Shown: piece by piece, positions 22,681 through 53,564 of the stretch | How positions within the stretch are numbered: the first letter of the stretch is position 1 | How the letters are laid out: each line of letters begins with the position of its first letter | Assembly (NCBI GenBank): GCA_963664815.2 | Contig: CAXXHB010000003.1 | Location: 1,920,001 to 1,984,000, forward strand | From: Spirochaetota bacterium | GTDB lineage: Bacteria; Spirochaetota; UBA4802; UBA5550 | Length of the DNA stretch: 64,000 nt | Reading direction: 5' to 3' | Program-made: the position numbers and the translations under genes | The notes under the pieces: generated by a model | What the model was told of the DNA's origin: nothing | The model's input: the letters and a program-made list of their open reading frames with translations, nothing else | Database searches by the model: none

Positions 22681-23577
22681 TTATCCTTTTGGATGATAAC
22701 TCTTATGTATCTTCTGAAGCTGCTTCTTTGCCATATGTGTATAAATCTGTGTAGTCGATATATCCATGTGACCCAGTAATTCCTGAACCGAACGAAGATC
22801 AGCACCATTCTCAATAAGGTGAGTTGCAAATGAATGTCTGAGCGTATGAGGTGTTATATTTTTCTGTATCTCTGTTCTTGTTACATAATTTTTCAAAAGA
22901 CGCCATACTGATTTTCTGTTAAGCTGGGAACCTTTTTTACTTACGAACAGGAACTCTGATTCTCTGCTACCTATAATTGCAGGCCTTGATTCTTTCTGAT
23001 ATTTTGTCAGCAGTCTTACAGATTCTTTTCCGATAGGAACCATCCTCTGTTTATTACCTTTTCCAATAACTGTAACGAACATATTTTCAAAATCGACATC
23101 TCGATTAGTAAGATCTATTGCTTCAGATATACGCAATCCACTTGAATATAAAAGCTCAAAAATTGTTTTATCACGCAATTCATAGCAGTCTTCTTCAGAT
23201 ATCGAATTGAAAAGTTTATTAAGCTCATTAACAGTTAAAAAATCGGGCAATATTTTTTCAACATGTGGTGTTTCAATTTTCTCAGTCGGATTGATAATAC
23301 TAGTATCTATATTGTCTGATATAAAATTATAAAATTGTCTTATCGCAGCCAGTGATCTTGCAAGTGTCCGTGATGAATTCTTTTTATCATTTTTCTCATA
23401 CTTGAGAAACTGCTGAATATCCTCCTGCGTTGCATCGAGAATAGTTTTACTTTTTATCTGTAGAAATTCACTGAACTTTTTCAGATCATAAGTGTAGGAA
23501 TAGATAGAGTTTTGTGAAAGGCCTTTTTCTACCTGTAGAAATTTCTTAAAACGTTTAATTGCAACTACTTCTTTCAC
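22681..23577 (-). CDS. xerD: Chromosomal tyrosine recombinase XerD
   Basis: EKGLSQNS, ELLYSSGLRISE, GKGNKQR, TPHTLRHSFATHL, LLGH, TTQIYTH, YHPKG end. Confidence 0.92.
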   Translation of the reverse strand: MKEVVAIKRFKKFLQVEKGLSQNSIYSYTYDLKKFSEFLQIKSKTILDATQEDIQQFLKYEKNDKKNSSRTLARSLAAIRQFYNFISDNIDTSIINPTEKIETPHVEKILPDFLTVNELNKLFNSISEEDCYELRDKTIFELLYSSGLRISEAIDLTNRDVDFENMFVTVIGKGNKQRMVPIGKESVRLLTKYQKESRPAIIGSRESEFLFVSKKGSQLNRKSVWRLLKNYVTRTEIQKNITPHTLRHSFATHLIENGADLRSVQELLGHMDISTTQIYTHMAKKQLQKIHKSYHPKG

Positions 23578-43862: not shown

Positions 43863-44087
43863 CAGCCGTCCTCCGATTCTGAGATTTGCATAATCTTTAA
43901 TCAGCGATTTTTTAGCAGCTGCGTTATGTTTTTATAAGGCTAATGTCCTGTTTCTTGGAAGATGATCTGCTGACATACCGGTTTTACCAAAATAGGACCA
44001 TGTGCGATCAATAAAACATCTTTTTTAGGGCTTACTTTTATTGCTAAAATATCCATTTTATTTCTCCGTCAGTTTTTGGCGTATGGC

Positions 44088-44146
44088 ATATAACTCTCAG
44101 AATAGTATCTCAATCTTCTCTGGTTGAGATACTATTCAAGTTGGCC
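44088..44146 (-). mobile_element. attC-like site (distal end of array)
   Basis: ATATAAC...GTTGGCC flanking a perfect 14-bp stem GAATAGTATCTCAA/TTGAGATACTATTC. Confidence 0.6.
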
Positions 44147-44520
44147 GGCTTTTTTATACTATAACTTTGACACAGCTCATTTTGACAGGACCAATACAAT
44201 CAGTGCATCGCCTGTTATATGCCGCCAGGTAGTCCCTGTGAGCCTGTCTAAGTGCAAAAATACTGTTTGCCCGACAGAACTGCTTGAGCAACAGCCAAAC
44301 ACAATATTAATGGATTTTAAATTACCGGATTTATAATTGCAAGAATAATTCGTATGTTGAAATTTGAATAAATAAACAAACGCATCTTTATAACAACCAA
44401 TGTATCTACTTTTAAAACACTGTTAAACGGCATTCCCAAGAATAAATTATCAGTATTTCTTAATCATCAGAATAAAAGTATCCCTTCATGGTCTTTTTAT
44501 AGTTCCATAATCATAAGATA

Positions 44521-44710
44521 TTAATATGCAGATAATAATCTACAACCGCTCTGCTTCGCCGGAGGTGACCAATACCTCACCGGTTCAGGAATCTCTTTTA
44601 CAACAAGCCTTCCGGTTTTGCATGCAGGGCAGCATGAAACGCGACAACTATCTTGGCACATAGGGCAACAGCCTTCTTTTTGTTTCTGTGTGATAGAATT
44701 CCGAAGTACT
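44521..44710 (-). pseudogene. C-terminal remnant of an IS91-family transposase
   Basis: CPACKTGRLVVKEIPEPVRYWSPP resembles the C-terminal CPxC...PP tail of IS91-like transposases. Confidence 0.45.
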
Positions 44711-44712
44711 AT

Positions 44713-45288
44713 CAGGGCAAACAATCTTGCCCTTTGCCGGATGTTTCCCGGTCAGCTGTCAGCCCCTGGCGGAGCAGTATGAGCTGAGCAAAGAGCTTCC
44801 TGAGGATACAGCTTTCCTGTTCTGGAAATATTTCAGGATTGATATAACTCTCTGCAGGGAGTGCGAAAAGGGACACATTCATTATATCCATGGCCTGTCG
44901 ACTTACGGTTAGCTGTTATAAAGAGTATAGCTGTACTTCACAAATTTAAAAAACTGTTTCATAGAGAGGATAAGTATGTCCGGAGATTTTGAGATTTTGC
45001 ATAAAATCGCCATTCACAGTCTATCAGATAACTGTAGAAATAATTATTTTACGGGATTATTATTTTTTCCGGTAAGATCATCGGATTTTTACTGTATGTT
45101 ATTTCAAAGATCGGGATAAAACGGTATTCAAATTCCTAAATATACTGTTCGATCCCAGTGGTTTCGTCCAACAGAGTCTTAACATAGCTGCTGTCTGAAG
45201 ATTGAAATCATCTGTTTAATGTTTTTATACCTCTAATAAAGATTAGCGGTTTTTTTGAGACAACTACGTTAAGACTTCTATAAGTTAT
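44713..45288 (+). repeat. Copy 1 of about 570-bp duplication (IS91 3' end plus attC-like site)
   Basis: Near-identical to 47362..47929 with a 7-bp and a 1-bp insertion. Confidence 0.93.
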
Positions 45289-45290
45289 GC
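45166..45290. mobile_element. attC-like site
   Basis: GTCCAAC-aga-GTCTTAACATAG...CTACGTTAAGAC-ttctataa-GTTATGC with internal hairpin. Confidence 0.7.
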
Positions 45291-45317
45291 GATGTTTTAG
45301 GCTTTAAAGAATAAGTT

Positions 45318-46541
45318 TTAACTATTGTTAAATTTTAACAAACCAGAATTATCATGGAATAAATTAATTATTTCGTTCGTCGTAATTTTTTTCAATAAAA
45401 AAGCTTCAAAAATTTCAAGCAGACTTTTCGTCTCAATTATCAAACTTTCATTTCTTTTTGCTAACTGGATTTGTTTTTCGTGAATTTGTTCGCGTTGTAG
45501 TAACTCTTTATTCCTTTGATGACAAATAATTAACAATGATTTTTTTGTTTTTGTTGAAATACTTTCACTTATTTTATCAAGATAATTCTGATAATGAACA
45601 TCCAATTGAGAAATGTGTTCGGATTTAACGTTTGTTGATACGCCCTTAATTTCACCAATAAAATTAATCTTCTCCAGTTCTATCAAAAAATCTTCATTTT
45701 TATTATCAATAAATCCTGTTAAATCACAATTTAATATTTGTTCAAGAATTTCAAATACAACATTAACCAAATCATTACCGTTTAAATAAAGAATCGATTT
45801 ATATTTATTGTTTCGATTAAGAAAATCATTTGCTTCTTGAATATTATTTTGTGCATTTTCTATTATTGAAATATTTTCTTGTATTGTTGATTTATGTTTT
45901 TTGTCATCATAAAAAATTACATCATTGATCCAAGATGGTATATTATCTTTTATTTTTATAAGGTTTAATAAATTTAAAAAATCGAATAATTCTTCAGTAT
46001 TATTAATTGAAAGTGTTGTTAAAATAATGTCATCAACTTCAATGGTTGTTGCTTTATTACTTAAAATTGATTTTGTTAAAACAATATGGTCAACATTAAA
46101 ATAAAAATCAGAACTAATAGTATGTGTAGATATTTGTGTTTGTGTTCTTTCAAACGTTAGTGATGTATAAGGTAACTTTAAATATTTAATTAGAATATTT
46201 ACTTCCAATTCATGCAAAATATTTTTTAGTTTACTACGACTCATATACTTACCAGAGAAATAATTATATTCAAAATTGATATCCTGTGGATAAATATATA
46301 TGATTTTTGTGTCTTGTGAGTTGTTTATCATCGTCGATAAGTGTATTAAATCGTTCGCTATATTGACTGAGTTATAACTATTCTTCGTATTACTCCATAT
46401 ATTGGAACTCCTTAAGTCAATTATATTGATTTGATACATATCAAGTGAGTCGGGATTATTAATCTCATTAATTGAAATATCATCTGAGTCAAAAGAATTA
46501 TAATTGCTTCGAGTAAGTAATTGTATCAATTTTTTATTCAT
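45318..46541 (-). CDS. Cassette protein with C-terminal PD-(D/E)XK nuclease-like domain
   Basis: Very AT-rich; coiled coil then EDFLIE...FIGEIKG...HISQL. Confidence 0.6.
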   Translation of the reverse strand: MNKKLIQLLTRSNYNSFDSDDISINEINNPDSLDMYQINIIDLRSSNIWSNTKNSYNSVNIANDLIHLSTMINNSQDTKIIYIYPQDINFEYNYFSGKYMSRSKLKNILHELEVNILIKYLKLPYTSLTFERTQTQISTHTISSDFYFNVDHIVLTKSILSNKATTIEVDDIILTTLSINNTEELFDFLNLLNLIKIKDNIPSWINDVIFYDDKKHKSTIQENISIIENAQNNIQEANDFLNRNNKYKSILYLNGNDLVNVVFEILEQILNCDLTGFIDNKNEDFLIELEKINFIGEIKGVSTNVKSEHISQLDVHYQNYLDKISESISTKTKKSLLIICHQRNKELLQREQIHEKQIQLAKRNESLIIETKSLLEIFEAFLLKKITTNEIINLFHDNSGLLKFNNS

Positions 46542-46556
46542 AATAATTTCCTAAAA

Positions 46557-46974
46557 GTCTGGTAGGTCGGGGAGTTTGCACCCCCTTTCCCCCATAAGAA
46601 CCGTACGTGAAAGTTTTACCACAGGCACTTCCTACGGTCGCCCTCCATACGGCTCAAGCCGTCTAAAGCTGATTATACAACCAGCCGTTGTTATCTGTTT
46701 GTATTCCCATTTTTCTATAGCAGAAATAATCAGAATCTTCTTTTAAAAATGGGTTCCTGTCAAGACTTATCATTCTGTGCCGTACAATTTTAATGTGTCC
46801 CGCAGTAATGAGAATCTCCTCTTCAGAGCAGAAAGTCCAATCCCTGTTTCCTATGCGTTTCCAGTACCGGTTTTTAAGCCATAAAGAATTTTTCATCGGG
46901 TGCCTGAATCTGCCCCATCTCCATAGAGCCTGAAAAAGAACAGTATCGGGATTTTTAAAGGCTTCCTTTGACAT
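46557..46974 (-). mobile_element. 3' remnant of a group II intron (RT/maturase C-terminus plus domains V-VI)
   Basis: LWRWGRFRHPMK...WTF...IVRH...NPF; DV GAGCCGTATG...CACGTACGGTTC; DVI ending CCGACCTACCAGAC. Confidence 0.88.
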
Positions 46975-47554
46975 TCAGGAAAATGCTTTTATTCCACCTC
47001 GGCAAAGAACTTAAAAACGGTTCTTTAAAGACACCTGACGGTATTGAAGATATTGCAAAGCTTTTTAATCAGCTTGCGCATATTCCATGGGTTGTAAATT
47101 CCCAGCCTCCCGGCAAAGGTAAAAAGAAACCGGTAAACATAGTCCGCTATCTTTCGAGATACGTTGCTAAAAGTGCAGTCAGTGATAAACGGATACAGAA
47201 AGCGGAGAATGGAAATGTTTACATCCGCTATTACAATAGAAAAAGGAAGCAGAGTAAAATGGAGGTTGTTACAGAGATTCAATTTATGAAACGGCTGGTG
47301 CTGCATATTCTTCCTAAAGGATTTAAAAAGTCCGGTTCTTCGGTTTTATGGCAAACCGTAACAGGGCAAACAATCTTGCCCTTTGCCGGATGTTTCCCGG
47401 TCAGCCCCTGGCGGAGCAGTATGAGCTGAGCAAAGAGCTTCTTGAGGATACGGCTTTCCTGATCTGGAAATATTTCAGGATCGATATAACTCTCTGCAGG
47501 GAGTGCGAAAAGGGACACATTCATTATATCCATGGCCTGTCGACTTACGGTTAG
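46968..47554 (+). pseudogene. IS91-family (Y2) transposase, 5'-truncated and frameshifted
   Basis: VRYLSRYVAKSAVSDKRI, FMKRLVLHILPKGFKK, then frameshift to VRFFGFMANR...CRECEKG. Confidence 0.85.
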
Positions 47555-47929
47555 CTGTTATAAAGAGTATAGCTGTACTTCACAAATTTAAAAACTGTTT
47601 CATAGAGAGGATAAGTATGCCCGGAGCTTTTGAGATTTTGCATAAAATCGCCATTCACAGTCTATCAGATAACTGTAGAAATAATTATTTTACGGGATTA
47701 TTATTTTTTCCGGTAAGATCATCGGATTTTTACTGTATGTTATTTCAAAGATCGGGATAAAACGGTATTCAAATTCCTATATATACTGTTCGATCCCAGG
47801 GGTTTCGTCCAACAGAGTCTTAACATAGTTGTTGTCTGAAGATTGAAATTATCTGTTTAATGTTTTTATACCGCTAATAAAGATTAGCGGTTTTTTTGAG
47901 GCAACTACGTTAAGACTTCTATAAGTTAT
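47362..47929 (+). repeat. Copy 2 of about 570-bp duplication
   Basis: Near-identical to 44713..45288; identity ends at GTTAT. Confidence 0.93.
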
Positions 47930-47931
47930 AT
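47807..47931. mobile_element. attC-like site
   Basis: GTCCAAC-aga-GTCTTAACATAGTTG...CAACTACGTTAAGAC-ttctataa-GTTATAT; internal ACCGCTAAT/ATTAGCGGT hairpin. Confidence 0.72.
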
Positions 47932-48199
47932 GAAGGCGGCGCGCTGAATATGAAAAGTCGGACGAAGACAGGACGTCTGAGGCCGTTGAAAAATCTATTT
48001 GTTTTGTACTAAAAGAAACAAAATTTTTTATATCTTGACAAATAATTGGTTTATTCATTATATTATGCACCTATAAGTGTTAATAAATATGCCATATCTA
48101 GAGTTTTTTGTCTAGTATCTATTAATTGTTTCAGTTGCTTTTTGAATAATTAGAAAGCCTTCTTTTTTGAAATTAAATTGTTTAAATGAAAATATTATT

Positions 48200-48934
48200 A
48201 TGAATGACGAAAATATCTTAAAATTGCCAAATATTAACAAAATAAAATACCAAAGTAATTTTATTCGTTTGGCTGTATGTGAATTGCGGTTTCCAACTCT
48301 ACTTGAATTGGAAACTAAAGAGCCTGCAAAATTTCAAGCAGCAATAAGAAAAGAATACCCATATTATACAAAAGGTAAAAACATAAATATTGAACCCGGT
48401 AGTGAAAACCCATCTCTTGAAACTGTTTACAATTTTATTTCAAAAGATCAGAGTTGGACGATTGGTCTTAAACCTTCATCCATATCGCTTGAAACTAAAG
48501 CATATAAAAATTTTAGTGAATTTCTAGAACGCTTATTAAAAGTAATTGATAAGGTAAAACCAATTATTGATACAGATTTTTTTACTCGTGTTGGTTTGAG
48601 ATATATTGATACTTTACCAGTAAAAACTGAGCCAGTCAATGAATGGATTAATCCTGAGCTTACAAACCAACTTATCAATGGGGAACTCGGTAAGCCCGGA
48701 AGTTATTGGCAAGAAATTGTTGGAAATACTTTTTGTGGTAAATATACATTTCGACATGGAATAAAAAATAACAATCATAATGATTATATTCTAGATTTTG
48801 ATTTTTATGATGAAAATGTAGAATTAAAAGATATTGGAACAAAAATTAGAAATTTACATGATGAGAGTATTAAATTATTCTTTTGGTCTCTTGGAAAAAA
48901 AAGTATAGAATATATGAATTCACAACATCAATAG
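48200..48934 (+). CDS. TIGR04255-like protein
   Basis: AVCELRFP, RVGLRYID and YILDFD motifs; start set at ATG 48200. Confidence 0.75.
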   Translation: MNDENILKLPNINKIKYQSNFIRLAVCELRFPTLLELETKEPAKFQAAIRKEYPYYTKGKNINIEPGSENPSLETVYNFISKDQSWTIGLKPSSISLETKAYKNFSEFLERLLKVIDKVKPIIDTDFFTRVGLRYIDTLPVKTEPVNEWINPELTNQLINGELGKPGSYWQEIVGNTFCGKYTFRHGIKNNNHNDYILDFDFYDENVELKDIGTKIRNLHDESIKLFFWSLGKKSIEYMNSQHQ

Positions 48935-48944
48935 GATAATAGTT

Positions 48945-49379
48945 ATGAATTTGATAACAGCAACAACTACAAAATCAGATGATATGTATAAACTGGATAA
49001 TGGTAGTTTAACAAGGTCATCATTCGATGAAATAGAAAAGGATTTGGACGATTATTCTTCATTACGAAATTGGAAGAACCAAGACCTTAAACGAACTAAT
49101 TATATAGATTCTGATGATTATATTATTGAATTTGATAAAAATAAATCAGAAGTTCAAATATCAAATGAAAATCGAATAACATTATTGGCTAGAAAGTATA
49201 TATCAGGAAAATTGTCTCTTGAAGAAGAATCTCGACTGCTTATTGAAAAAGAACGAGTTAAACAACTAATTCCACTTGTCACCATAGAAGATTATAAACT
49301 TGTTGGAGATATGCTGGCAGATGTAAAAAAAATTCAAGATAAACAAAAAGCTATCAAGGAAAAACTAAATATAAAATAA
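48945..49379 (+). CDS. Hypothetical protein (middle gene of 3-gene cassette)
   Basis: AGGA RBS, 10 bp after previous gene; disordered N-half, helical C-half. Confidence 0.7.
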   Translation: MNLITATTTKSDDMYKLDNGSLTRSSFDEIEKDLDDYSSLRNWKNQDLKRTNYIDSDDYIIEFDKNKSEVQISNENRITLLARKYISGKLSLEEESRLLIEKERVKQLIPLVTIEDYKLVGDMLADVKKIQDKQKAIKEKLNIK

Positions 49380-49383
49380 ATAT

Positions 49384-50007
49384 ATGGAACCATTCATATA
49401 TCCTCAGATAAAACATCGGCGTACCCAGACACCTCCAAAATTCAAGCGTTATCAATCATATAAAAAGTATTTAAAGGTTGAGTTTGAAAACAAGTGTATC
49501 TATTGTAGAATGCCTGATGGCTTAAAAGGAGATGCTTTTTTCGGCGTTGAACATTATAAGCCATCAAGTAAATTTAAAAGTTTAGAATGCACTTACTCAA
49601 ATTTATATTATAGTTGTAATACTTGTAACAGTAATAAAGGCAATTTTTGGCCCTCAGCACGACAATTAATTAAAAATTTATTTATTCCGAATCCATGTGA
49701 TCATATTATGATTCAACATCTTAAATACGTTGATGAGTATGTAAAGTCAAAGTCTGATACAGGAGATTTTTGCATAGAATTATTACGATTAAATGAAGAG
49801 AGTGTTGTTGATTATCGTAAATATGTAATTGATACAATAAAGATTCTTAATAAAGAACTCTCCTCTTTAAAATCTGATATAATTGAGTTTGAAAAATTAA
49901 AATTAAGTGATAAAAATAAATTAGACGAAATAAAATCAGCTATAAATGAAACAAATGAAAATATTGAAAGAATAGATAAACATATTCAACGTCTTACTGG
50001 AAAATAA
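49384..50007 (+). CDS. HNH endonuclease
   Basis: CIYC...VEHYKP...YSNLYYSCNTCNSNKG; C-terminal coiled coil. Confidence 0.88.
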   Translation: MEPFIYPQIKHRRTQTPPKFKRYQSYKKYLKVEFENKCIYCRMPDGLKGDAFFGVEHYKPSSKFKSLECTYSNLYYSCNTCNSNKGNFWPSARQLIKNLFIPNPCDHIMIQHLKYVDEYVKSKSDTGDFCIELLRLNEESVVDYRKYVIDTIKILNKELSSLKSDIIEFEKLKLSDKNKLDEIKSAINETNENIERIDKHIQRLTGK

Positions 50008-50033
50008 TTAATATTACTCTTTTTATAATTCAT

Positions 50034-50074
50034 ATTTCAGAAAAAGCGGGCAGGACGCCAGCTTTTTCTGAAAT
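50034..50074. terminator. Strong hairpin after HNH gene
   Basis: ATTTCAGAAAAAGC...GCTTTTTCTGAAAT perfect 14-bp stem. Confidence 0.55.
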
Positions 50075-50099
50075 CAGTAAAAAGTCAAGCGCCGCTTTC

Positions 50100-50197
50100 A
50101 TATAACGTTTTGCTTACCCGAAGTTGCGCGGCCTTTTGCGCAATTTGCCGCAGGCCAAGTGAGGTACTCCGAACGCAGCGGGTAAGCTTTGTTATAT
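50100..50197 (-). mobile_element. attC site
   Basis: Minus strand ATATAAC-aaa-GCTTACCCG...GGCCTGCGGCAAATT...CGGGTAAGC-aaaac-GTTATAT; complementary R and L boxes. Confidence 0.85.
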
Positions 50198-50280
50198 GCT
50201 GAAAGCGCGATCATGAAATGTTTTGAGCAAGCGAAGCACGGATGCTGAGCTTGTACTAACGGATTATTATTAAATTTCCC

Positions 50281-50952
50281 TTATAATGGTTCCCATGTTT
50301 TAATAGGTTCTTGAAATTCACCATCAATTTCATCCGGTTTAAACGTGAATAAATAATTTTGCAACCATAAGTATTTATCTCTAATTTGTACTTTGTTTTT
50401 TATGTCACTAGAATTTGTTTTTACCATATTTTTTAAAACATCATATATTTTTTTCCAATTAGTATTATCAATAATATGCAATTGATAATTATTACCGTCT
50501 CTTCTTATTAAATTTTTTTCTTGAAGTGTGGAAAAAGTACCTTTATTTTTTTCAATCTCAATTATATTTGGGTTAATTAAAATTCTGGGATATGTTGCTA
50601 TTTGCTCTAACTGATAAGCTTCTGATAATGCTAAACTATAAGTTATTGTATCGTTTTCAAAATGTTTATTAAAGGATGTTCCTCCTCTGATTAACAATCC
50701 ATTTTCCATAAAATTAATAAATATATTTTTCAATATTTCAAGAAAATATATGACATTGTTAGTATCGTTATAAGCAATGAATAATGAATCCGATATTGAT
50801 TTATAGCTTATATCCGTTTTGCTAAAACCTTGTAGATATTGAAAAGATGATTGTAGCTTTTCTTTAAATAACTCTGTATTTTTTCTTTCATCATCTTCTA
50901 TAAATTGCTTATAACCAAGTACATCTAAAAAAGCATATAATTTATAACTCAT
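50281..50952 (-). CDS. Nucleotidyl-cyclase-like hypothetical protein (cassette)
   Basis: AFLDVLGYK, SISDSLFI, LIRGG, AYQLE...PRI; overlaps ParA stop (ATGA). Confidence 0.6.
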   Translation of the reverse strand: MSYKLYAFLDVLGYKQFIEDDERKNTELFKEKLQSSFQYLQGFSKTDISYKSISDSLFIAYNDTNNVIYFLEILKNIFINFMENGLLIRGGTSFNKHFENDTITYSLALSEAYQLEQIATYPRILINPNIIEIEKNKGTFSTLQEKNLIRRDGNNYQLHIIDNTNWKKIYDVLKNMVKTNSSDIKNKVQIRDKYLWLQNYLFTFKPDEIDGEFQEPIKTWEPL

Positions 50953-51977
50953 ATTGTTAACGACTCAACAATTTTTTTTATTTCATCTTTATATGCAATT
51001 AATTTTGTATTATATGTGTCCCAGACTTGACCATAAAACTTTTGATTTATTTCTGATAAATATGTTGAATCGTCTTGGCTGATGTCAAATATAGCTTTCC
51101 CTACGATTTGTGCAACTGGAAGTAGGGGCCCAAGATCTTCAACTTCTGATATTATTGGTTTGTTCCCTATTTCTTTAGAGTTGGATTTTAAAGAACCATC
51201 TTTGATACAAGACTTCAATTCGTCGGTTATTTTATTACTCCATACATCATATACCTTTTTAGCTTTTCCTTGATACTTTTGATATTTTTGGGAGATGGAG
51301 CCTAAAAATATTGGAAAGGATTTAGTTACTTCAATTCCGAAAGGTGATAATGTATCATATATTAGTTCATCAGTTTTTTCCCATTCATTAAAAAGATTTT
51401 TTAATACTTTGATTGCTAACATAGAAAAACGATCAGGACTGACTGGGATAAAAAATCCATCCGTTGCGAGAAAAGCAAGTCTTGTTAATGCACCACTACT
51501 GGGACCAACGTCTGTGATTATATAATCATATTTATTTCTATAGTCATCTATAAGTCTTTTAAAAGAAACATATGTATTTTTTTCATTAACTCTGCTTGTA
51601 ATTGCAAAATCAATTGCTGATGCAAAATATTGTTCTGCACGTGCACTAAACTGGAAATCGCCACGTATTAAATCTAAGTTTGGATATAATTTAGATTTGC
51701 TTATTACGATTTTTGAAGTATCAATTCGATGTGATGCTCCATCTATTCGGTCTTGAAAGGCGTCTAATATTGATGTTCCGGGTAAATCTTTTTCGGGATT
51801 ATCCATTATTTCAGTATTTGAAGCGAAAAATAATTCTGTTAAATTACATTGTGGATCTGCGTCTATTAGTAATATTTTTTTACCAAGAATTTTACTCAAA
51901 TAAACTCCAACATTAAAGGCAGTAGTTGTTTTTGAAACACCACCTTTATTATTATAAAATGTAATCGCCTGTATCAT
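50949..51977 (-). CDS. ParA/Soj-family ATPase (cassette)
   Basis: NNKGGVSKTT, IDADPQCNLT, YDYIITDVGP. Confidence 0.9.
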   Translation of the reverse strand: MIQAITFYNNKGGVSKTTTAFNVGVYLSKILGKKILLIDADPQCNLTELFFASNTEIMDNPEKDLPGTSILDAFQDRIDGASHRIDTSKIVISKSKLYPNLDLIRGDFQFSARAEQYFASAIDFAITSRVNEKNTYVSFKRLIDDYRNKYDYIITDVGPSSGALTRLAFLATDGFFIPVSPDRFSMLAIKVLKNLFNEWEKTDELIYDTLSPFGIEVTKSFPIFLGSISQKYQKYQGKAKKVYDVWSNKITDELKSCIKDGSLKSNSKEIGNKPIISEVEDLGPLLPVAQIVGKAIFDISQDDSTYLSEINQKFYGQVWDTYNTKLIAYKDEIKKIVESLTI

Positions 51978-52049
51978 AGCTTCTCCTTCTCTTTGTACAT
52001 TTTTATAAATGAGGCCACGGATGGCCGATTAAAAAGTTTTTGCGCTTTT

Positions 52050-52135
52050 TGCATATAACTCTTTTCTATCCGAACAAACTTTCGCATAGTACAGGAAAAT
52101 TCTGTTAAAACCGAAAGAAAGTACGTACAGTAAAG
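52050..52135 (-). mobile_element. Probable attI site immediately downstream of integrase
   Basis: Minus strand ...CGGATAGAAAAGA-GTTATATGC at first cassette start; matches GCATATAAC at that cassette's end; no attC-type hairpin upstream. Confidence 0.6.
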
Positions 52136-53209
52136 CTATATATCCAGGGGACTCTTGATGCTCCTGAGTTTACCCGTACTTACATGTGTATAAATCATCG
52201 TGGTATCAGGACTTTGATGCCCTAATAGTTCCTGTATATATCGTATATCTATACCCTGTTCAAGCAGATGTGTAGCAAAACTATGCCTTAAAGAGTGAAC
52301 TGTAACTGCTTTTTTTATACCGGCTTTTACTACAGCGCGTTGAAAAATATTCTGGACAGATCTCCCTTTGATGTGGCTCCCATCCTCCTGCCCTTTAAAA
52401 AGCCAGTTTTCAGGATGATATATCTCAATGTAAGATTTTAAAAGGGCAAGAAATGTTTCGGACAGAAGAGTGGCACGATCCTTCCTCCCCTTTCCGCACC
52501 TTAAATTGATGGCACCCCTGCCAATGTCTATATCGCTCAGCTTTATTGTAACTGCCTCGTTTAGCCTCAATCCGGCGGAATAAATTAATGCAATAATTGT
52601 TTTATGCTTCAGATTTTCTATACTTTCAAGTAAAGAATGAACTTCAGGTTTACTTAAAACAACAGGAAGCTTTTTATCCCTTTTAGGCGGCGTAATTTCA
52701 TAAATAAAATCTCTCTTTAATACCTCACCATAATAAAATCTGAGAGAATTGATCATCAGCTGCACTGTCGCTGCGCTTAGATTTTTTTCTGAAACTTTGG
52801 AAGAAAGAAATACCGTTATATCCTGCTGTATAATGCTTTCAGGTTTTTTTTCAGAAAAGACAAGAAGATCTGCATTATAGTGAAGGTAGCTTTTAATTGT
52901 GCTGCGGCTGTATTTTCTTATTATAAGTTCATCTTTAAGCGCTTTAAGAAATTCATCCGGAAAGTCATTGTTGCCGTTGGCAGGTGTGGCATCACTGCCA
53001 ATGTATACACAATATTTCAGATTAACTACTGTTTCAAGCAGTCTGTCAAAGTTCTCTTTCCTGTCAGGAATATACCATATTTTTCCTGCATTATCCCATC
53101 TTCTGCCTGATATACCTCTGATTACTGTAAGCAATTCCTGATTATACATGAATTTTACAGCAAGATGAGAATTGTCAGACGAGGCTATATGAATTTCATT
53201 TTTATTCAT
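52136..53209 (-). CDS. Integron-associated tyrosine recombinase (HARP-like N-terminus, SAM-like domain, no IntI insertion)
   Basis: YSRSTIKSY, LPVVLS, YSAGLR, GKGRKDR, HSLRHSFATHLLE, LLGH, TTMIYTHV, SPLD; adjacent to attC array. Confidence 0.9.
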   Translation of the reverse strand: MNKNEIHIASSDNSHLAVKFMYNQELLTVIRGISGRRWDNAGKIWYIPDRKENFDRLLETVVNLKYCVYIGSDATPANGNNDFPDEFLKALKDELIIRKYSRSTIKSYLHYNADLLVFSEKKPESIIQQDITVFLSSKVSEKNLSAATVQLMINSLRFYYGEVLKRDFIYEITPPKRDKKLPVVLSKPEVHSLLESIENLKHKTIIALIYSAGLRLNEAVTIKLSDIDIGRGAINLRCGKGRKDRATLLSETFLALLKSYIEIYHPENWLFKGQEDGSHIKGRSVQNIFQRAVVKAGIKKAVTVHSLRHSFATHLLEQGIDIRYIQELLGHQSPDTTMIYTHVSTGKLRSIKSPLDI

Positions 53210-53564
53210 TATTTAACTTGCTCATCATTGCAACCGGCTATTAATACGTATCAGAATTGCCGTTATTTCAATACATTTTTTCAAATATTCAAATAAATAT
53301 CAGGATTGTTTCCAAACCGGCATTTTTATAATCCTGTGCATAAAAAGATAATACAATATAAACTACTACCTGTTTTGCAACCAGCCCGGCTGTTATGTGA
53401 AACTTCACTATTACTCTTAAGGCGGTCTGCCGGTAGCCTGTATATAAACTGCTTTTCATACTTTATAAAATCCATAATTTCCTGAAGTTTTCTTTTATCA
53501 CAAAACCGGTAATCACGTTGTTGAGCTGGCTGCCGCGCAATGAAGGAATATGAAAAATGTTATA

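What the first reader, a model, noticed from the sequence alone, without database searches (positions are those of the whole stretch)
44088..53209. Atypical integron driven by a HARP-like-domain recombinase lacking the IntI signature
Seen: an intact tyrosine recombinase (R-K-HxxR-H-Y) followed, downstream and co-oriented, by a GTTATAT site and four AAC...GTT hairpins separating AT-rich gene units whose ends are mutually complementary. Known: canonical IntI has an insertion of about 30 aa between GKxxKDR and the WxF motif, needed for folded single-stranded attC. Here the segment is short (LLKSYIEIYHPENWLF). The N-terminus (KFMYNQELLTVIRGISGRRWDNAGKIWYIP) resembles a HARP ssDNA-annealing domain. 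Inference: an integron class that standard intI models would miss, in which the HARP-like domain may handle attC hairpins.
Basis: partly seen in the sequence, partly recalled or inferred. Interest (0 to 1): 0.85.

Follow-up and report, generated by a model that had tools for sequence, protein, structure and literature searches.

The report
Integron whose integrase lacks the hallmark domain
This is the decayed copy of a gene-capture system (an integron) whose recombinase lacks the protein segment thought to define and enable all integron integrases and instead carries an extra DNA-binding-like domain at its front end, so standard detection rules would probably miss the whole class.

Summary
The core of the finding holds. 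Window 52136-53209(-) encodes an intact tyrosine recombinase. It is IntI/Xer-like but has 17 residues where Vibrio IntI4 has the 59-residue I2 segment. It scores below the IntI cut-off. It also carries a 72-residue N-terminal domain with weak but repeated HARP/UvsW/XPB-like signals.

The decisive evidence is comparative.
- Orthologues in related uncultured Spirochaetota sit at the head of co-oriented attC arrays. At least 43 sites lie directly downstream in one complete genome.
- All 45 sites in the ortholog loci are downstream and co-oriented.
- In 31 of 35 sites the R'' box is the exact reverse complement of the preceding site's R' box. This is the signature of cassette exchange.
- No canonical IntI is found in these genomes.

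On a core-domain tree the clade lies outside the monophyletic canonical IntIs. The role of the N-terminal domain is untested. My eight literature searches found no description of such an integrase.

The parts
52136..53209 (-). Integrase gene: 357-aa IntI/Xer-like tyrosine recombinase without the I2 insertion. SAM-like domain at residues 87-167, catalytic domain at 185-344.
   Evidence: ORF. Pfam. NF040815 235.3 bits, over its 220 cut-off; TIGR02249 220.7 bits, under its 265 cut-off and split in two. Gap opposite IntI4 182-240. AF2 model pLDDT 84.3, best PDB folds 2a3v then XerA.
52994..53209 (-). N-terminal beta-beta-alpha-beta-beta-alpha-beta domain (residues 1-72), HARP/UvsW-N/XPB-DRD-like. 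It is joined to the core by a low-confidence linker (residues 73-81).
   Evidence: Pfam HARP E 0.0056 here and E<=0.01 in 28 of 65 relatives. Domain model pLDDT 91.8. Foldseek top hit 4o66, E 0.032, prob 0.97. VIA-align: UvsW Z 7.1, XPB Z 5.9 and 5.8, 4o66 Z 4.3 at rank 29.
52040..52135 (-). attI-like region between the stop codon and the first cassette. The R box GTTATAT reads 52059->52053 on the minus strand.
   Evidence: Sequence. The same ...AGTTRTRYGC site lies 70-170 nt after the stop in the orthologous loci, and one orthologue (L165) shares AGTTATATGCAAAAAGCGC. In relatives the attI R box is the reverse complement of the first attC's R''.
50107..52058 (-). Cassette 1: ParA-like P-loop ATPase (50949-51977) and a 223-aa protein with no family hit (50281-50952). 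Both are co-oriented with the integrase.
   Evidence: ORFs. AAA_31 E 1.1e-28; no Pfam, NCBIfam or PADLOC hit for the 223-aa protein. The boundaries follow from the G|TT positions of attI and attC1 (inference).
50100..50197 (-). attC1, the only complete attC in the window: R'' ATATAAC, 3-nt spacer, 9-bp L stem, variable centre, L', 5-nt spacer, R' GTTATAT.
   Evidence: CM R1 108.4 bits, E 4.3e-23. ssDNA fold -27 to -28.5 kcal/mol, z -3.5 and -4.1. Covariation in the L stem across 28 sites.
47932..50099 (-). Cassette 2 body. Its three genes lie on the + strand, antisense to the array: TIGR04255-family protein (48167-48934), a 144-aa protein (48945-49379) and a PtuB-like HNH endonuclease (49384-50007).
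   Evidence: ORFs. HNH E 1e-5. PtuB models down to E 5.8e-22. TIGR04255 E 3.2e-37.
47925..47931 (-). R''-only stub of a second attC (ATATAAC on the minus strand). The rest of the site is replaced by an IS91-like end.
   Evidence: Sequence. One-mismatch match to the 9-mer. No fold. The junction ...CTATAA|GTTATATG is shared by 17 module copies in the genome.
46968..47924 (+). IS91-family remnant B: the C-terminal part of a Y2 transposase (46968-47429) plus about 500 nt of 3' end. It is antiparallel to the array.
   Evidence: Y2_Tnp E 8.9e-20. NF033538 82 bits, under its 125 cut-off. Direct repeat with copy A. Copies elsewhere in the genome.
46557..46974 (-). Group II intron remnant: domains V/VI (46557-46657) and a maturase fragment (46663-46974).
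   Evidence: Rfam RF00029 45.3 bits, E 1.8e-6. GIIM E 4.6e-4, below its cut-off.
45318..46541 (-). 407-aa AT-rich ORF of unknown family, co-oriented with the array. Probable cassette gene.
   Evidence: ORF. No hit in Pfam, NCBIfam or PADLOC. G+C 26%.
45284..45290 (-). R''-only stub of a third attC (GCATAAC on the minus strand), abutted by IS91-like remnant A.
   Evidence: Sequence. Junction shared with the other module copies.
44710..45283 (+). IS91-family remnant A, a shorter copy of remnant B (97-98% identical).
   Evidence: Direct repeats D1, D2 and D5. blastn.
44088..44724 (-). 3' end of a second, minus-strand IS91-like element: the Y2 C-terminal 67-aa ORF (44521-44724), a 3' flank, a terminal hairpin (about 44100-44146) and the GTTATAT box (44094->44088) at the border with core genes. 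It contains the inverted repeat GGCATATAAC (44085-44094) / GTTATATGCC (44214-44223).
   Evidence: Read by eye against the intact TR+Y2 element of the same genome printed; no alignment statistic. Sequence. Fold. Not attC-like by the CM.

Best explanation
The region is a chromosomal integron of an undescribed class, here in a decayed state.

The gene at 52136-53209(-) encodes its integrase. This is an IntI/Xer-like tyrosine recombinase that lacks the I2 ('additional') domain of all recognised integron integrases. It carries an N-terminal HARP/UvsW-like domain.

The layout is the 'inverted' one known from Treponema. The integrase gene points towards an attI site about 80 nt past its stop codon. 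Cassettes follow on the same strand, each ending in a folded-hairpin attC.

The inferred mechanism is as follows. The integrase exchanges strands at the G|TT of the R boxes (attI x attC and attC x attC). Cassettes are thereby excised as circles and re-inserted at attI.

Shown here: the anatomy of the sites, their conservation, structure-preserving covariation and orientation, and the chimeric R-box pattern that such exchange leaves behind.

Inferred: that this protein is the catalyst; that attC is used as folded single-stranded DNA; and that the N-terminal domain contributes structure-specific or accessory DNA binding.

In this genome the array has shrunk to two recognisable cassettes plus debris, and has been invaded by IS91-family ends and a group II intron.
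For: 1. Protein. It is IntI-like (best PDB sequence and fold match 2a3v IntI4) but has 17 residues opposite the 59-residue I2 region. It falls below the IntI HMM cut-off.

2. No other candidate integrase.
- 0 of 12 TIGR02249 matches in the own genome reach the cut-off.
- The complete same-genus genome G006 has no TIGR02249 match at E<=1e-60.
- G006 has no orthologue of the IS91-associated recombinase; the best match to it is the HARP-type gene itself, at 39%.
- G006 has no IS91 transposase match.

3. Conserved attI-like site. It lies 70-170 nt after the stop codon in the orthologous loci I read.

4. attC arrays.
- The CM R1 finds 48 matches in G006. Of the 45 listed, 43 lie on the integrase's strand within C1:4328805-4426618, directly downstream of the gene at 4426936-4428000.
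- In the fetched ortholog loci, 45 of 45 hits are downstream and co-oriented.
- 9 of the 10 loci with more than 2 kb of downstream sequence have at least one.

5. Structure. 90.2% of cells pair, against 74.4% in shuffles. 101 cells have changes on both sides, against 35. Slid controls pair at 21-43%.

6. Cassette signature. In 31 of 35 sites the four variable R'' positions are the exact reverse complement of the preceding site's R' (attI for the first site). Only 6 of 35 match their own R'. The predecessor fits better in 28 sites, the own R' in 1, with 6 ties.

7. Gene orientation. In 18 of 22 cassettes whose longest ORF is at least 100 aa, that ORF is co-oriented with the array.

8. Window. 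The attI R box matches the R'' of attC1 and the next R'' stub. attC1 is nearly identical to same-genus sites.

9. Same design in another phylum. Bacteroidota homologues that carry the N-terminal domain have an attI-like site and 12-bp-stem attC-like hairpins with the same 3/5-nt spacers. All of these are downstream and co-oriented.
Against: - No recombination was observed. Contig laying gave no clean attI/attC junctions.
- The window itself has only one intact attC, so this copy may be inactive.
- The CM and the first site set were derived from sites chosen for pairing, which inflates the paired percentage. It does not inflate the R-box chain test.
- One orthologue with 17.8 kb of downstream sequence has no attC and no attI-like site (L177/G039).
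- At genome level the association is loose. By my hand tally, 17 of 26 relatives with a full-length orthologue have CM hits, but so do 16 of 34 without one.
- Deleting or altering I2 in IntI1 is reported to affect single-strand recombination (abstract of PMC7790495). An I2-less enzyme acting on folded attC therefore runs against current understanding.
- IntegronFinder itself could not be run.
Confidence: 0.78

Rival explanations
1. The recombinase is an ordinary Xer/XerA-type enzyme (chromosome dimer resolution or another housekeeping recombination) that merely lies beside an orphan attC cluster (a CALIN). An integrase that is absent or lost built the cassettes.
For: The NCBIfam XerA model NF040815 is passed (235.3 bits against 220). 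XerA is the second-best PDB match. Cury et al. [quoted passage not shown] The window's array is decayed.
Against: Gene, attI-like site and array keep the same order and strand in 10 loci from several genera. The attI R box pairs with the first cassette's R''. The genome has other Xer-like genes: window 22681-23577 and C3:2478010-2478780. No canonical IntI is present in G000 or in complete G006. Dimer-resolution Xer proteins lack the extra N-terminal domain, which is also found on Treponema integron integrases.
Confidence: 0.1
2. The IS91-associated tyrosine recombinase (the 'integron-like' subgroup that accompanies Y2 transposases), or the IS91 elements themselves, generate and move the units. 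The GTTATAT boxes would then be IS91 target or end sequences rather than integron sites.
For: An intact recombinase + Y2 transposase pair lies directly after an attC at G000:C3:3695479-3697634. 17 IS91-like module copies in G000 all end ...CTATAA|GTTRYRYG. IS91-associated recombinases are reported as the closest relatives of IntI and lack its insertion (preprint 10.1101/542381, passages). That IS91 elements target GTTC/CTTG is recalled, not taken from any call.
Against: G006 has at least 43 attCs but no IS91 transposase match and no orthologue of that recombinase. 0 of the 4 array-bearing relatives tested pass the IS91 model, and only one has a match at all, at 20.8 bits. The IS91 pieces in the window are truncated and antiparallel to the array. 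The R-box chain holds across arrays without IS91.
Confidence: 0.05
3. The clade is a degenerate offshoot of canonical IntIs that lost I2 and with it attC activity. The arrays would then be fossils inherited from an I2-bearing ancestor.
For: Treponema-type canonical IntIs in the same phylum share the N-terminal domain and the inverted layout. The window's array is eroded.
Against: On the core-domain tree (272 columns, 76 rows) canonical IntIs form one clade (SH-aLRT 100) that excludes this clade (98). A tree uniting this clade with Treponema-type IntIs is rejected (AU p 1e-53). The catalytic residues are invariant across 65 members. R'' boxes match the preceding R' exactly in 31 of 35 sites, which random decay would blur. 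The attC type differs from the Treponema type.
Confidence: 0.07

Closest known systems
Treponema-type 'inverted' chromosomal integrons (T. denticola, T. succinifaciens and relatives)
   Same: Same phylum. The integrase is transcribed towards attI and the cassettes (PMC3607928, passages). A homologous N-terminal HARP-like domain is present (BLASTP E 9e-9; 10 of 10 sampled loci). Arrays lie directly downstream.
   Different: The Treponema integrases have the I2 insertion: my motif-spacing measure gives 102 residues against 61 here. They pass TIGR02249. They nest inside canonical IntIs on the tree. Their attCs are short (63-66 nt) with 2-nt spacers, and model R1 does not find them.
Canonical integron integrases (Vibrio IntI4/VchIntIA, class 1 IntI1)
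   Same: They are the best sequence and fold matches (2a3v: E 1e-44; Foldseek E 2.5e-17). They share the SAM_4 + catalytic architecture and the attI/attC logic with GTT crossover boxes.
   Different: This protein has no I2 helix or additional domain (17 residues against 59). It has an extra N-terminal domain. The gene is co-directional with the cassettes. The attCs are longer (94-176 nt), with 3- and 5-nt spacers and an uninterrupted 9-bp L stem followed by a 1x4 internal loop.
CALIN (clusters of attC sites lacking an integron integrase), as defined by IntegronFinder
   Same: Under the two-profile rule (PF00589 plus intI_Cterm; PMC4889954, passages), these arrays would presumably be reported as CALINs.
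   Different: Here an intact, conserved recombinase with its own attI-like site heads the array. IntegronFinder was not run, so this is a prediction.
IS91/IS3-associated 'integron-like' tyrosine recombinases (Smyshlyaev et al. preprint 10.1101/542381)
   Same: They are IntI-related, they lack the IntI insertion (passages), and one is present in this genome.
   Different: That protein is 37% identical to this one, has no N-terminal domain and is paired with a Y2 transposase. This gene is not paired with a transposase, and the literature I saw does not link those recombinases to attC arrays.
Archaeal/bacterial XerA (NF040815)
   Same: It passes the HMM cut-off and has a similar core length without insertions.
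   Different: This protein has an extra N-terminal domain and a conserved attI + attC array context. No dif-type function has been tested.

Membership tests
Integron (system) | A tyrosine recombinase gene adjacent to the cassette array | tested here: met
   Gene 52136-53209(-) with attC1 1.9 kb downstream. Orthologues head arrays in 10 loci and in G006.
Integron (system) | An attI site beside the integrase, ending in a GTTRRRY-type box where cassettes are inserted | tested here: met
   GTTATAT 77 nt after the stop. The position and AGTTRT core are conserved in orthologues. In L173, L174, L175, L186 and L183 the R box is the reverse complement of the first attC's R''. Binding was not tested.
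Integron (system) | attC sites: imperfect palindromes (R''-L''...L'-R') conserved in structure rather than sequence | tested here: met
   Model R1 and covariation. One site in the window, 45 in ortholog loci. The sites were first picked by a pairing filter, so the paired percentage is inflated.
Integron (system) | Cassette boundaries at G|TT: each attC is a chimera whose R'' matches the preceding site's R' | tested here: met
   31 of 35 sites match exactly, against 6 of 35 for the site's own R'. Uninformative within the window, because all boxes are identical.
Integron (system) | Integrase-catalysed excision and integration of cassettes | not testable with these tools
   Contigs of 4 public runs gave no clean junctions.
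Integron integrase IntI (TIGR02249; IntegronFinder's PF00589 + intI_Cterm rule) | IntI-specific additional domain (I2 helix region near patch III) | tested here: not met
   17 residues opposite IntI4 182-240. TIGR02249 positions 180-234 are unmatched, and the score is 220.7 against a 265 cut-off. The intI_Cterm profile itself was not available.
Integron integrase IntI | Membership of the monophyletic IntI clade | tested here: not met
   Canonical IntIs (23 rows) form a clade with SH-aLRT 100 that excludes this protein. Its own clade (23 rows, 98) is their sister together with 3 short archaeal proteins, at support 84. This is a quick search rooted on two Xer-like proteins of the same genome.
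XerA-like recombinases (NF040815) | HMM score over the curated cut-off | tested here: met
   235.3 bits against 220. The model's own name already reads 'site-specific tyrosine recombinase/integron integrase'.
HARP domain (PF07443) | Sequence match over Pfam's gathering score | tested here: not met
   16.6 bits against 25. 28 of 65 relatives match at E<=0.01, best 2.4e-6.
HARP domain (PF07443) | Fold like the SMARCAL1 HARP substrate-recognition domain | tested here: inconclusive
   Foldseek rank 1 is 4o66, E 0.032, prob 0.97, TM 0.45. VIA-align gives Z 4.3 at rank 29, while UvsW N-term scores Z 7.1 and XPB Z 5.9 and 5.8. The tool notes that Z under 8 is common by chance.
IS91-associated recombinase | Gene adjacent to and co-oriented with a Y2 (IS91) transposase | tested here: not met
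   The nearest Y2 fragments are truncated, antiparallel and at least 4.2 kb away. A separate genuine pair exists at C3:3695479-3697423.

The most novel reading that the evidence does not exclude
A large, cross-phylum sister lineage of the canonical integron integrases runs full integrons (attI, folded attC, cassette shuffling, arrays of more than 40 cassettes) without the I2 domain. It is seen in Spirochaetota and Bacteroidota, with relatives in other bacteria and in archaea. If so, integron recombination either predates the acquisition of I2 or can be achieved in another way, possibly with help from the N-terminal HARP/UvsW-like structure-specific DNA-binding domain. Many arrays now reported as orphan 'CALINs' would then have an unrecognised integrase next door.
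Probability: 0.45. Interest if true: 0.9.

Novelty: new variant of a known kind. Interest (0 to 1): 0.8.

Why it matters
Integron integrases are currently defined by the I2/additional domain, both in software and in the literature I saw.
- IntegronFinder's rule is described in PMC4889954.
- The archaeal integron study uses the same rule (10.1101/2022.02.06.479319).
- Acquisition of I2 is presented as the innovation that gave single-strand attC recombination (abstract of PMC7790495).

A natural clade that heads long, freshly chimeric attC arrays without I2 would have three consequences.
1. It would show that surveys undercount integrons and mislabel arrays as CALINs, notably in Spirochaetota and Bacteroidota.
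2. It would give a direct experimental handle on how attC hairpins can be recognised without I2.
3. It would open a new view of how integrons arose from Xer-like recombinases.

The shared N-terminal domain on Treponema integrases is also a testable and, as far as my searches show, undescribed feature of the 'inverted' integrons.

Tried and rejected
1. Model R1 on more distant homologues' loci. It found 0 hits in 80 genome loci and 3 weak hits (E 0.003-0.007) in 80 metagenome loci. The model is clade-specific, so this says little. A generic hairpin scan then found a few strong co-oriented sites in Bacteroidota loci, amid weak hits on both strands (23 on the + strand, 5 on the - strand).

2. ESM Atlas search with residues 1-85. 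The best scores were 0.84 to unnamed Bacteroidota clusters, which is uninformative.

3. Synteny of the integron's flanks in five relatives.
- The 264-aa upstream neighbour was not found with this query.
- The alpha/beta-hydrolase neighbour lies about 200 kb from the G006 array.
- I therefore make no claim that the chromosomal anchors are conserved.

4. Sequencing runs. Five DNA runs from 2 studies hold the stretch. Laying Logan contigs of four of them gave only short-sided joints (21-58 nt) at repeats and contig breaks at the repeated sites. Two contigs of run X4 diverge after 50194, inside an R box (agreement 0.67). This is evidence neither for nor against cassette exchange.

5. PADLOC, Pfam and NCBIfam gave nothing for the 223-aa, 144-aa (one ThsB hit at E 0.0038, discounted) and 407-aa proteins.

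6. Rfam found only the group II intron. It reported no attC-type family match.

7. Site A (44085-44223) was considered as a terminal attC and as an invertible segment. I rejected both readings in favour of the end of an IS91-like element, after reading it by eye against the intact element.

8. I considered that the IS91-like 3' module might be a recombination site of its own, because 17 copies end at G|TT. This is left open and reported as seen in passing.

9. Literature. Eight searches found no paper describing an integron integrase without the additional domain, or a HARP-like domain on one.
- What I saw of each paper: PMC3607928, PMC4889954, 10.1101/542381, 10.1101/2022.02.28.482270 and 10.1101/2022.02.06.479319 as passages; PMC7790495 as abstract and outline; all others as search listings only.
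- Supplements were closed. Supplementary Figure S1 of PMC4889954 shows the four 'intermediate' recombinases and may include members of this clade.
- Subscription-journal papers (for example the original T. denticola integron description) are not in the library.

Full report
**What is in the window**

The minus strand of 52136-53209 encodes an intact 357-aa tyrosine recombinase. It has a Phage_int_SAM_4 domain (residues 87-167) and a Phage_integrase catalytic domain (185-344). The catalytic Arg, Lys, His-x-x-Arg, His and Tyr positions are invariant or nearly so in a 65-member family alignment.

Its best solved relative is the Vibrio integron integrase IntI4 (2a3v, E 1e-44), ahead of XerA. The alignment breaks in two, however. 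Query 86-261 pairs with IntI4 4-181, and query 279-355 pairs with 241-317. The protein therefore has 17 residues where IntI4 has the 59 that hold the IntI-specific I2 region.

The HMM results agree. The integron-integrase model TIGR02249 matches in two pieces, skipping profile positions 180-234. It scores 220.7 bits, under its 265-bit cut-off. The XerA-type model NF040815 is passed at 235.3 bits against 220.

**The N-terminal domain**

Residues 1-72 form a separate beta-beta-alpha-beta-beta-alpha-beta domain. It is modelled with pLDDT 91.8 and joined to the core by a low-confidence linker.

The evidence for a HARP-like character is as follows:
- Pfam HARP matches weakly here (E 0.0056, below the cut-off).
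- HARP matches at E<=0.01 in 28 of 65 relatives, best 2.4e-6.
- Foldseek's first hit for the domain model is the SMARCAL1 HARP substrate-recognition domain (4o66, E 0.032, prob 0.97).
- The Foldseek-independent search ranks the N-terminal domain of T4 UvsW first (Z 7.1). Two XPB damage-recognition domains follow (Z 5.9 and 5.8), and 4o66 comes at Z 4.3.

All of these are small structure-specific DNA-binding modules of SF2 helicases. Scores of this size are common by chance, as the tool warns. I therefore call the HARP-like reading moderately supported, not proven.

**Sites in the window**

All four exact GCATATAAC 9-mers of the window lie between 44086 and 52059. The whole 5.2-Mb genome has 95.

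Reading the integrase's strand, the order of features is:
1. stop codon;
2. 77 nt later, an R-box GTTATAT (52059->52053);
3. a ParA-like ATPase gene and a 223-aa gene;
4. a 98-nt hairpin at 50197->50100;
5. a three-gene unit on the opposite strand (TIGR04255-family protein, 144-aa protein, PtuB-like HNH nuclease);
6. an ATATAAC box (47931->47925) that runs straight into the 3' end of an IS91-family remnant.

The 98-nt hairpin reads ATATAAC-AAA-GCTTACCCG...CGGGTAAGC-AAAAC-GTTATAT. It folds well as single-stranded DNA (z -3.5 and -4.1).

Further on lie:
- a group II intron remnant (Rfam 45.3 bits; maturase fragment);
- a 407-aa orphan gene;
- a second box (GCATAAC, 45290->45284) abutted by a second copy of the same IS91 remnant (direct repeats);
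- the 3' end of another, oppositely oriented IS91-like element, which ends in a hairpin and GTTATAT at 44094->44088, at the border with core genes.

The window thus holds an attI-like site, one complete attC, two attC stubs and one unrelated hairpin. It does not hold four attC hairpins. The covariance model built later finds only the one site (108.4 bits; next best 12.3 bits).

**Why it is nevertheless an integron**

The host is an uncultured member of the Spirochaetota. A flanking housekeeping protein has its best named hits there, at up to 84% identity.

Orthologues of the recombinase are full-length, include the N-terminal domain and are 42-66% identical. They occur in most genomes of the same genus and in many of the same family and order. 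Strikingly, their contigs often end just past the gene, as happens at repeats.

Where sequence continues, a conserved site ...AGTTRTRYGC lies 70-170 nt after the stop codon. Short direct repeats precede it. It is followed by arrays of hairpins of one design: a 7-nt R'' ending in AAC, a 3-nt spacer, a 9-bp L stem, a variable centre, L', a 5-nt spacer, and an R' starting with GTT.

An alignment of 28 such sites shows compensatory changes throughout the L stem and an inner helix. On a named structure, 90.2% of cells pair, against 74.4% in shuffles and 21-43% when the partner is slid. 101 cells carry changes on both sides, against 35 expected. The sites were first selected by a pairing filter, so the paired percentage is inflated; the double changes are less affected.

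The calibrated model R1 gave these results:
- It finds 48 matches in the complete same-genus genome G006. Only 50 candidates were scored, so this is a lower bound.
- Of the 45 listed, 43 lie on the integrase's strand within C1:4328805-4426618. That is immediately downstream of the orthologue at 4426936-4428000.
- In the fetched ortholog loci, 45 of 45 hits are downstream and co-oriented.
- 9 of the 10 loci with more than 2 kb of downstream sequence have at least one. The exception is L177.

**The cassette signature**

Integron recombination at G|TT makes every attC a chimera. Its R'' belongs to its own cassette and pairs with the TTRRRY that opens that cassette, that is, with the R' of the preceding site.

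With the model-defined sites of six arrays, the four variable R'' positions are the exact reverse complement of the preceding R' (attI for the first site) in 31 of 35 cases. They match the site's own R' in only 6 of 35. The predecessor fits better in 28 cases, the own R' in 1, with 6 ties.

An earlier count with my cruder scanner gave 20 of 26. By my reading of the coordinates, most of its exceptions lay after sites the scanner had missed.

Cassette genes mostly run with the array. In 18 of 22 cassettes whose longest ORF is at least 100 aa, that ORF is co-oriented.

I take this pattern as strong indirect evidence of repeated site-specific exchange at these boxes.

**Who is the integrase**

- The window's genome has no TIGR02249 match over the cut-off: 0 of 12 matches.
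- G006 has none at E<=1e-60.
- Only 1 of 39 sampled genomes of the family has one.
- G006 also lacks any IS91 transposase match.
- The best G006 match to the genome's IS91-associated recombinase is the HARP-type gene itself.

The HARP-type recombinase, with its own attI-like site, is therefore the only visible candidate. That it catalyses the exchange remains an inference.

**Relation to known integron integrases**

A scan of 401 Spirochaetota genomes found canonical IntIs over the cut-off in 41, concentrated in one family of 2.5-3.3-Mb genomes. One of them sits at the coordinates published for the T. succinifaciens integrase. That genome group is therefore the Treponema group with 'inverted' integrons.

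These Treponema-type proteins have the I2 insertion. By my motif-spacing measure they have 102 residues, against 61 here. They also carry an N-terminal domain homologous to the one here:
- pairwise BLASTP gives E 9e-9;
- an HMM of the domain hits 10 of 10 of them, and none of the 52 other I2-bearing ORFs sampled.

Their attCs are a different, short type (63-66 nt) that model R1 does not detect.

On a tree of the core domain only (272 columns, 76 rows; N-termini cut off and insertion columns dropped):
- The 23 I2-bearing proteins form one clade (SH-aLRT 100). They include the Treponema type and class 1 IntI1.
- The I2-less, HARP-bearing Spirochaetota proteins form another (23 rows, support 98). 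This clade includes five database relatives, among them ones whose sources name Desulfurobacterium and a Methanotrichaceae archaeon.
- The two clades are sisters, together with three short archaeal proteins (support 84).
- A tree that unites all Spirochaetota HARP-bearing proteins is rejected (AU p 1e-53).

Caveats: the search was 'quick', the root rests on two Xer-like proteins of the same genome, several rows have deviant composition, and the tested group was named after a first tree had been seen.

On this evidence the clade did not recently lose I2. It is a separate lineage next to the canonical IntIs. The N-terminal domain has either been exchanged between lineages or lost many times.

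**Beyond the Spirochaetota**

Bacteroidota homologues (34-41% identical) carry the N-terminal domain. They show an attI-like ...ACGTTRYRG site about 160 nt after the stop codon. They also have about 200-nt hairpins with 12-bp L stems and the same 3/5-nt spacers, all downstream and co-oriented. In one case the R'' is CTATAAC after an attI GTTATAG.

A Chryseobacterium plasmid has a 39%-identical homologue. It is followed by small co-oriented genes, an IS110-family transposase and a group II intron reverse transcriptase, with one attC-like hairpin.

The protein family is very large. All 8000 scored candidates matched, and NCBI names some members 'site-specific tyrosine recombinase/integron integrase'. 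I have not shown that all of it is integron-associated.

**Mechanism**

Shown: the anatomy, the conservation and the exchange signature.

Inferred, by analogy with canonical integrons: recombination of attI with a folded attC strand, and excision of cassettes as circles.

Two details may bear on how it works without I2. First, these attCs have an uninterrupted 9-bp L stem. Second, the L stem is flanked by unequal spacers (3 and 5 nt) and a 1x4 internal loop. This differs from the single extrahelical base inside the L box of classical sites; that comparison is recalled from the literature on attC_aadA7, not taken from a call.

The N-terminal domain could bind the hairpin or branch, or the direct repeats of attI. 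Because Treponema integrases have both the domain and I2, it is not simply a replacement.

**Is it known?**

The papers I could see treat the additional domain as defining IntI:
[quoted passage not shown] They mention only four intermediate proteins, each with fewer than three attC sites (PMC4889954, passages).
- The IntegronFinder 2 preprint and the archaeal integron preprint use the same rule.
- Escudero et al. present the acquisition of I2 as the step towards single-strand recombination (abstract).
- A tyrosine-recombinase classification notes an 'integron-like' subgroup without the insertion in IS91/IS3 elements, but no link to attC arrays.

Eight full-text searches found no description of an I2-less integron integrase or of a HARP-like domain on one. 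Supplements and subscription journals were out of reach.

I therefore rate it a new variant of a known kind.

**State of this copy**

In this genome the array is eroded. It has one attC, two stubs, IS91 and intron debris, and AT-rich cassettes that look like defence or partition-type genes.

Ten further R1 matches at E<=1 (six of them at E<=0.001) lie at five other loci of the genome. They sit beside recombinase pseudogene fragments and IS91-like modules. The integrase gene here is intact, but whether it is active is unknown.

**Verdict**

Confidence that this is the integrase of a genuine integron class: about 0.78. Interest: 0.8.

Noticed in passing
window 44710-45283 and 46968-47924 (+); G000:C3, 15 further places: A repeated IS91-family 3' module occurs in 17 copies in this genome. 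Each ends at exactly ...ACGTTAAGACTTCTATAA, followed by GTT[A/G]... and then unrelated sequence. The IS91-like ends therefore sit precisely at R-box-like GTT sites. All copies lie in the five regions that also hold attC hits. This could be target choice for attC/attI boxes, or a recombination site of its own.
   Followed up: partly
G000:C3:3695479-3697634 (locus L190): An intact IS91-type pair lies immediately after an attC (90.5 bits). It comprises a 295-aa frame for an insertion-less 'integron-like' recombinase (37% identical to the window's) and a full Y2 transposase (429.7 bits). The pair ends in a hairpin followed by GTTAGAC.
   Followed up: partly
loci L194-L203 (unnamed Spirochaetota genomes, Treponema-type): Canonical, I2-bearing integron integrases of the 'inverted' Treponema type are about 400-440 aa long. 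They start with a domain homologous to the HARP-like domain here. I found no mention of this in the papers searched.
   Followed up: partly
window 46557-46974 (-): A truncated group II intron (domains V/VI plus a maturase fragment) is fused to the broken IS91 fragment. The same composite junction recurs at three or more other places in the genome.
   Followed up: partly
window 48167-50007 (+): A cassette holds a TIGR04255-family protein, a 144-aa protein and a PtuB-like HNH nuclease, with no PtuA ATPase. It is possibly a compact defence unit.
   Followed up: no
locus L206 (Chryseobacterium sp. plasmid NZ_CP041688.1): A plasmid-borne homologue (39% identical, with the N-terminal domain) is followed by small co-oriented genes, an IS110-family transposase and a group II intron RT. 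This may be a mobile version of the same integron class.
   Followed up: partly
window 53274-53500: In contigs of all four public runs laid, 225 nt upstream of the integrase gene are replaced by the same 35 other letters. This is a population variant or an assembly difference.
   Followed up: no
G000:C3:3590287-3590526, 3211819-3211911, 3699436-3699636, 1363978-1364184, 2569660-2569866: Fragments of HARP-type recombinase genes (46-90% identical; four of the five with internal stop codons) lie near other attC hits. They suggest several dead integron platforms in one genome.
   Followed up: no
window 22681-23577 (-): A second tyrosine recombinase lies in the window (298-aa ORF, 36% identical over residues 99-351, no N-terminal domain). 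It is probably a Xer-type enzyme and was used as a tree outgroup.
   Followed up: no
window 1-40000: Most of the upstream 40 kb is also AT-rich (24-38% G+C), with many large ORFs. It was not examined, and R1 found no attC there.
   Followed up: no
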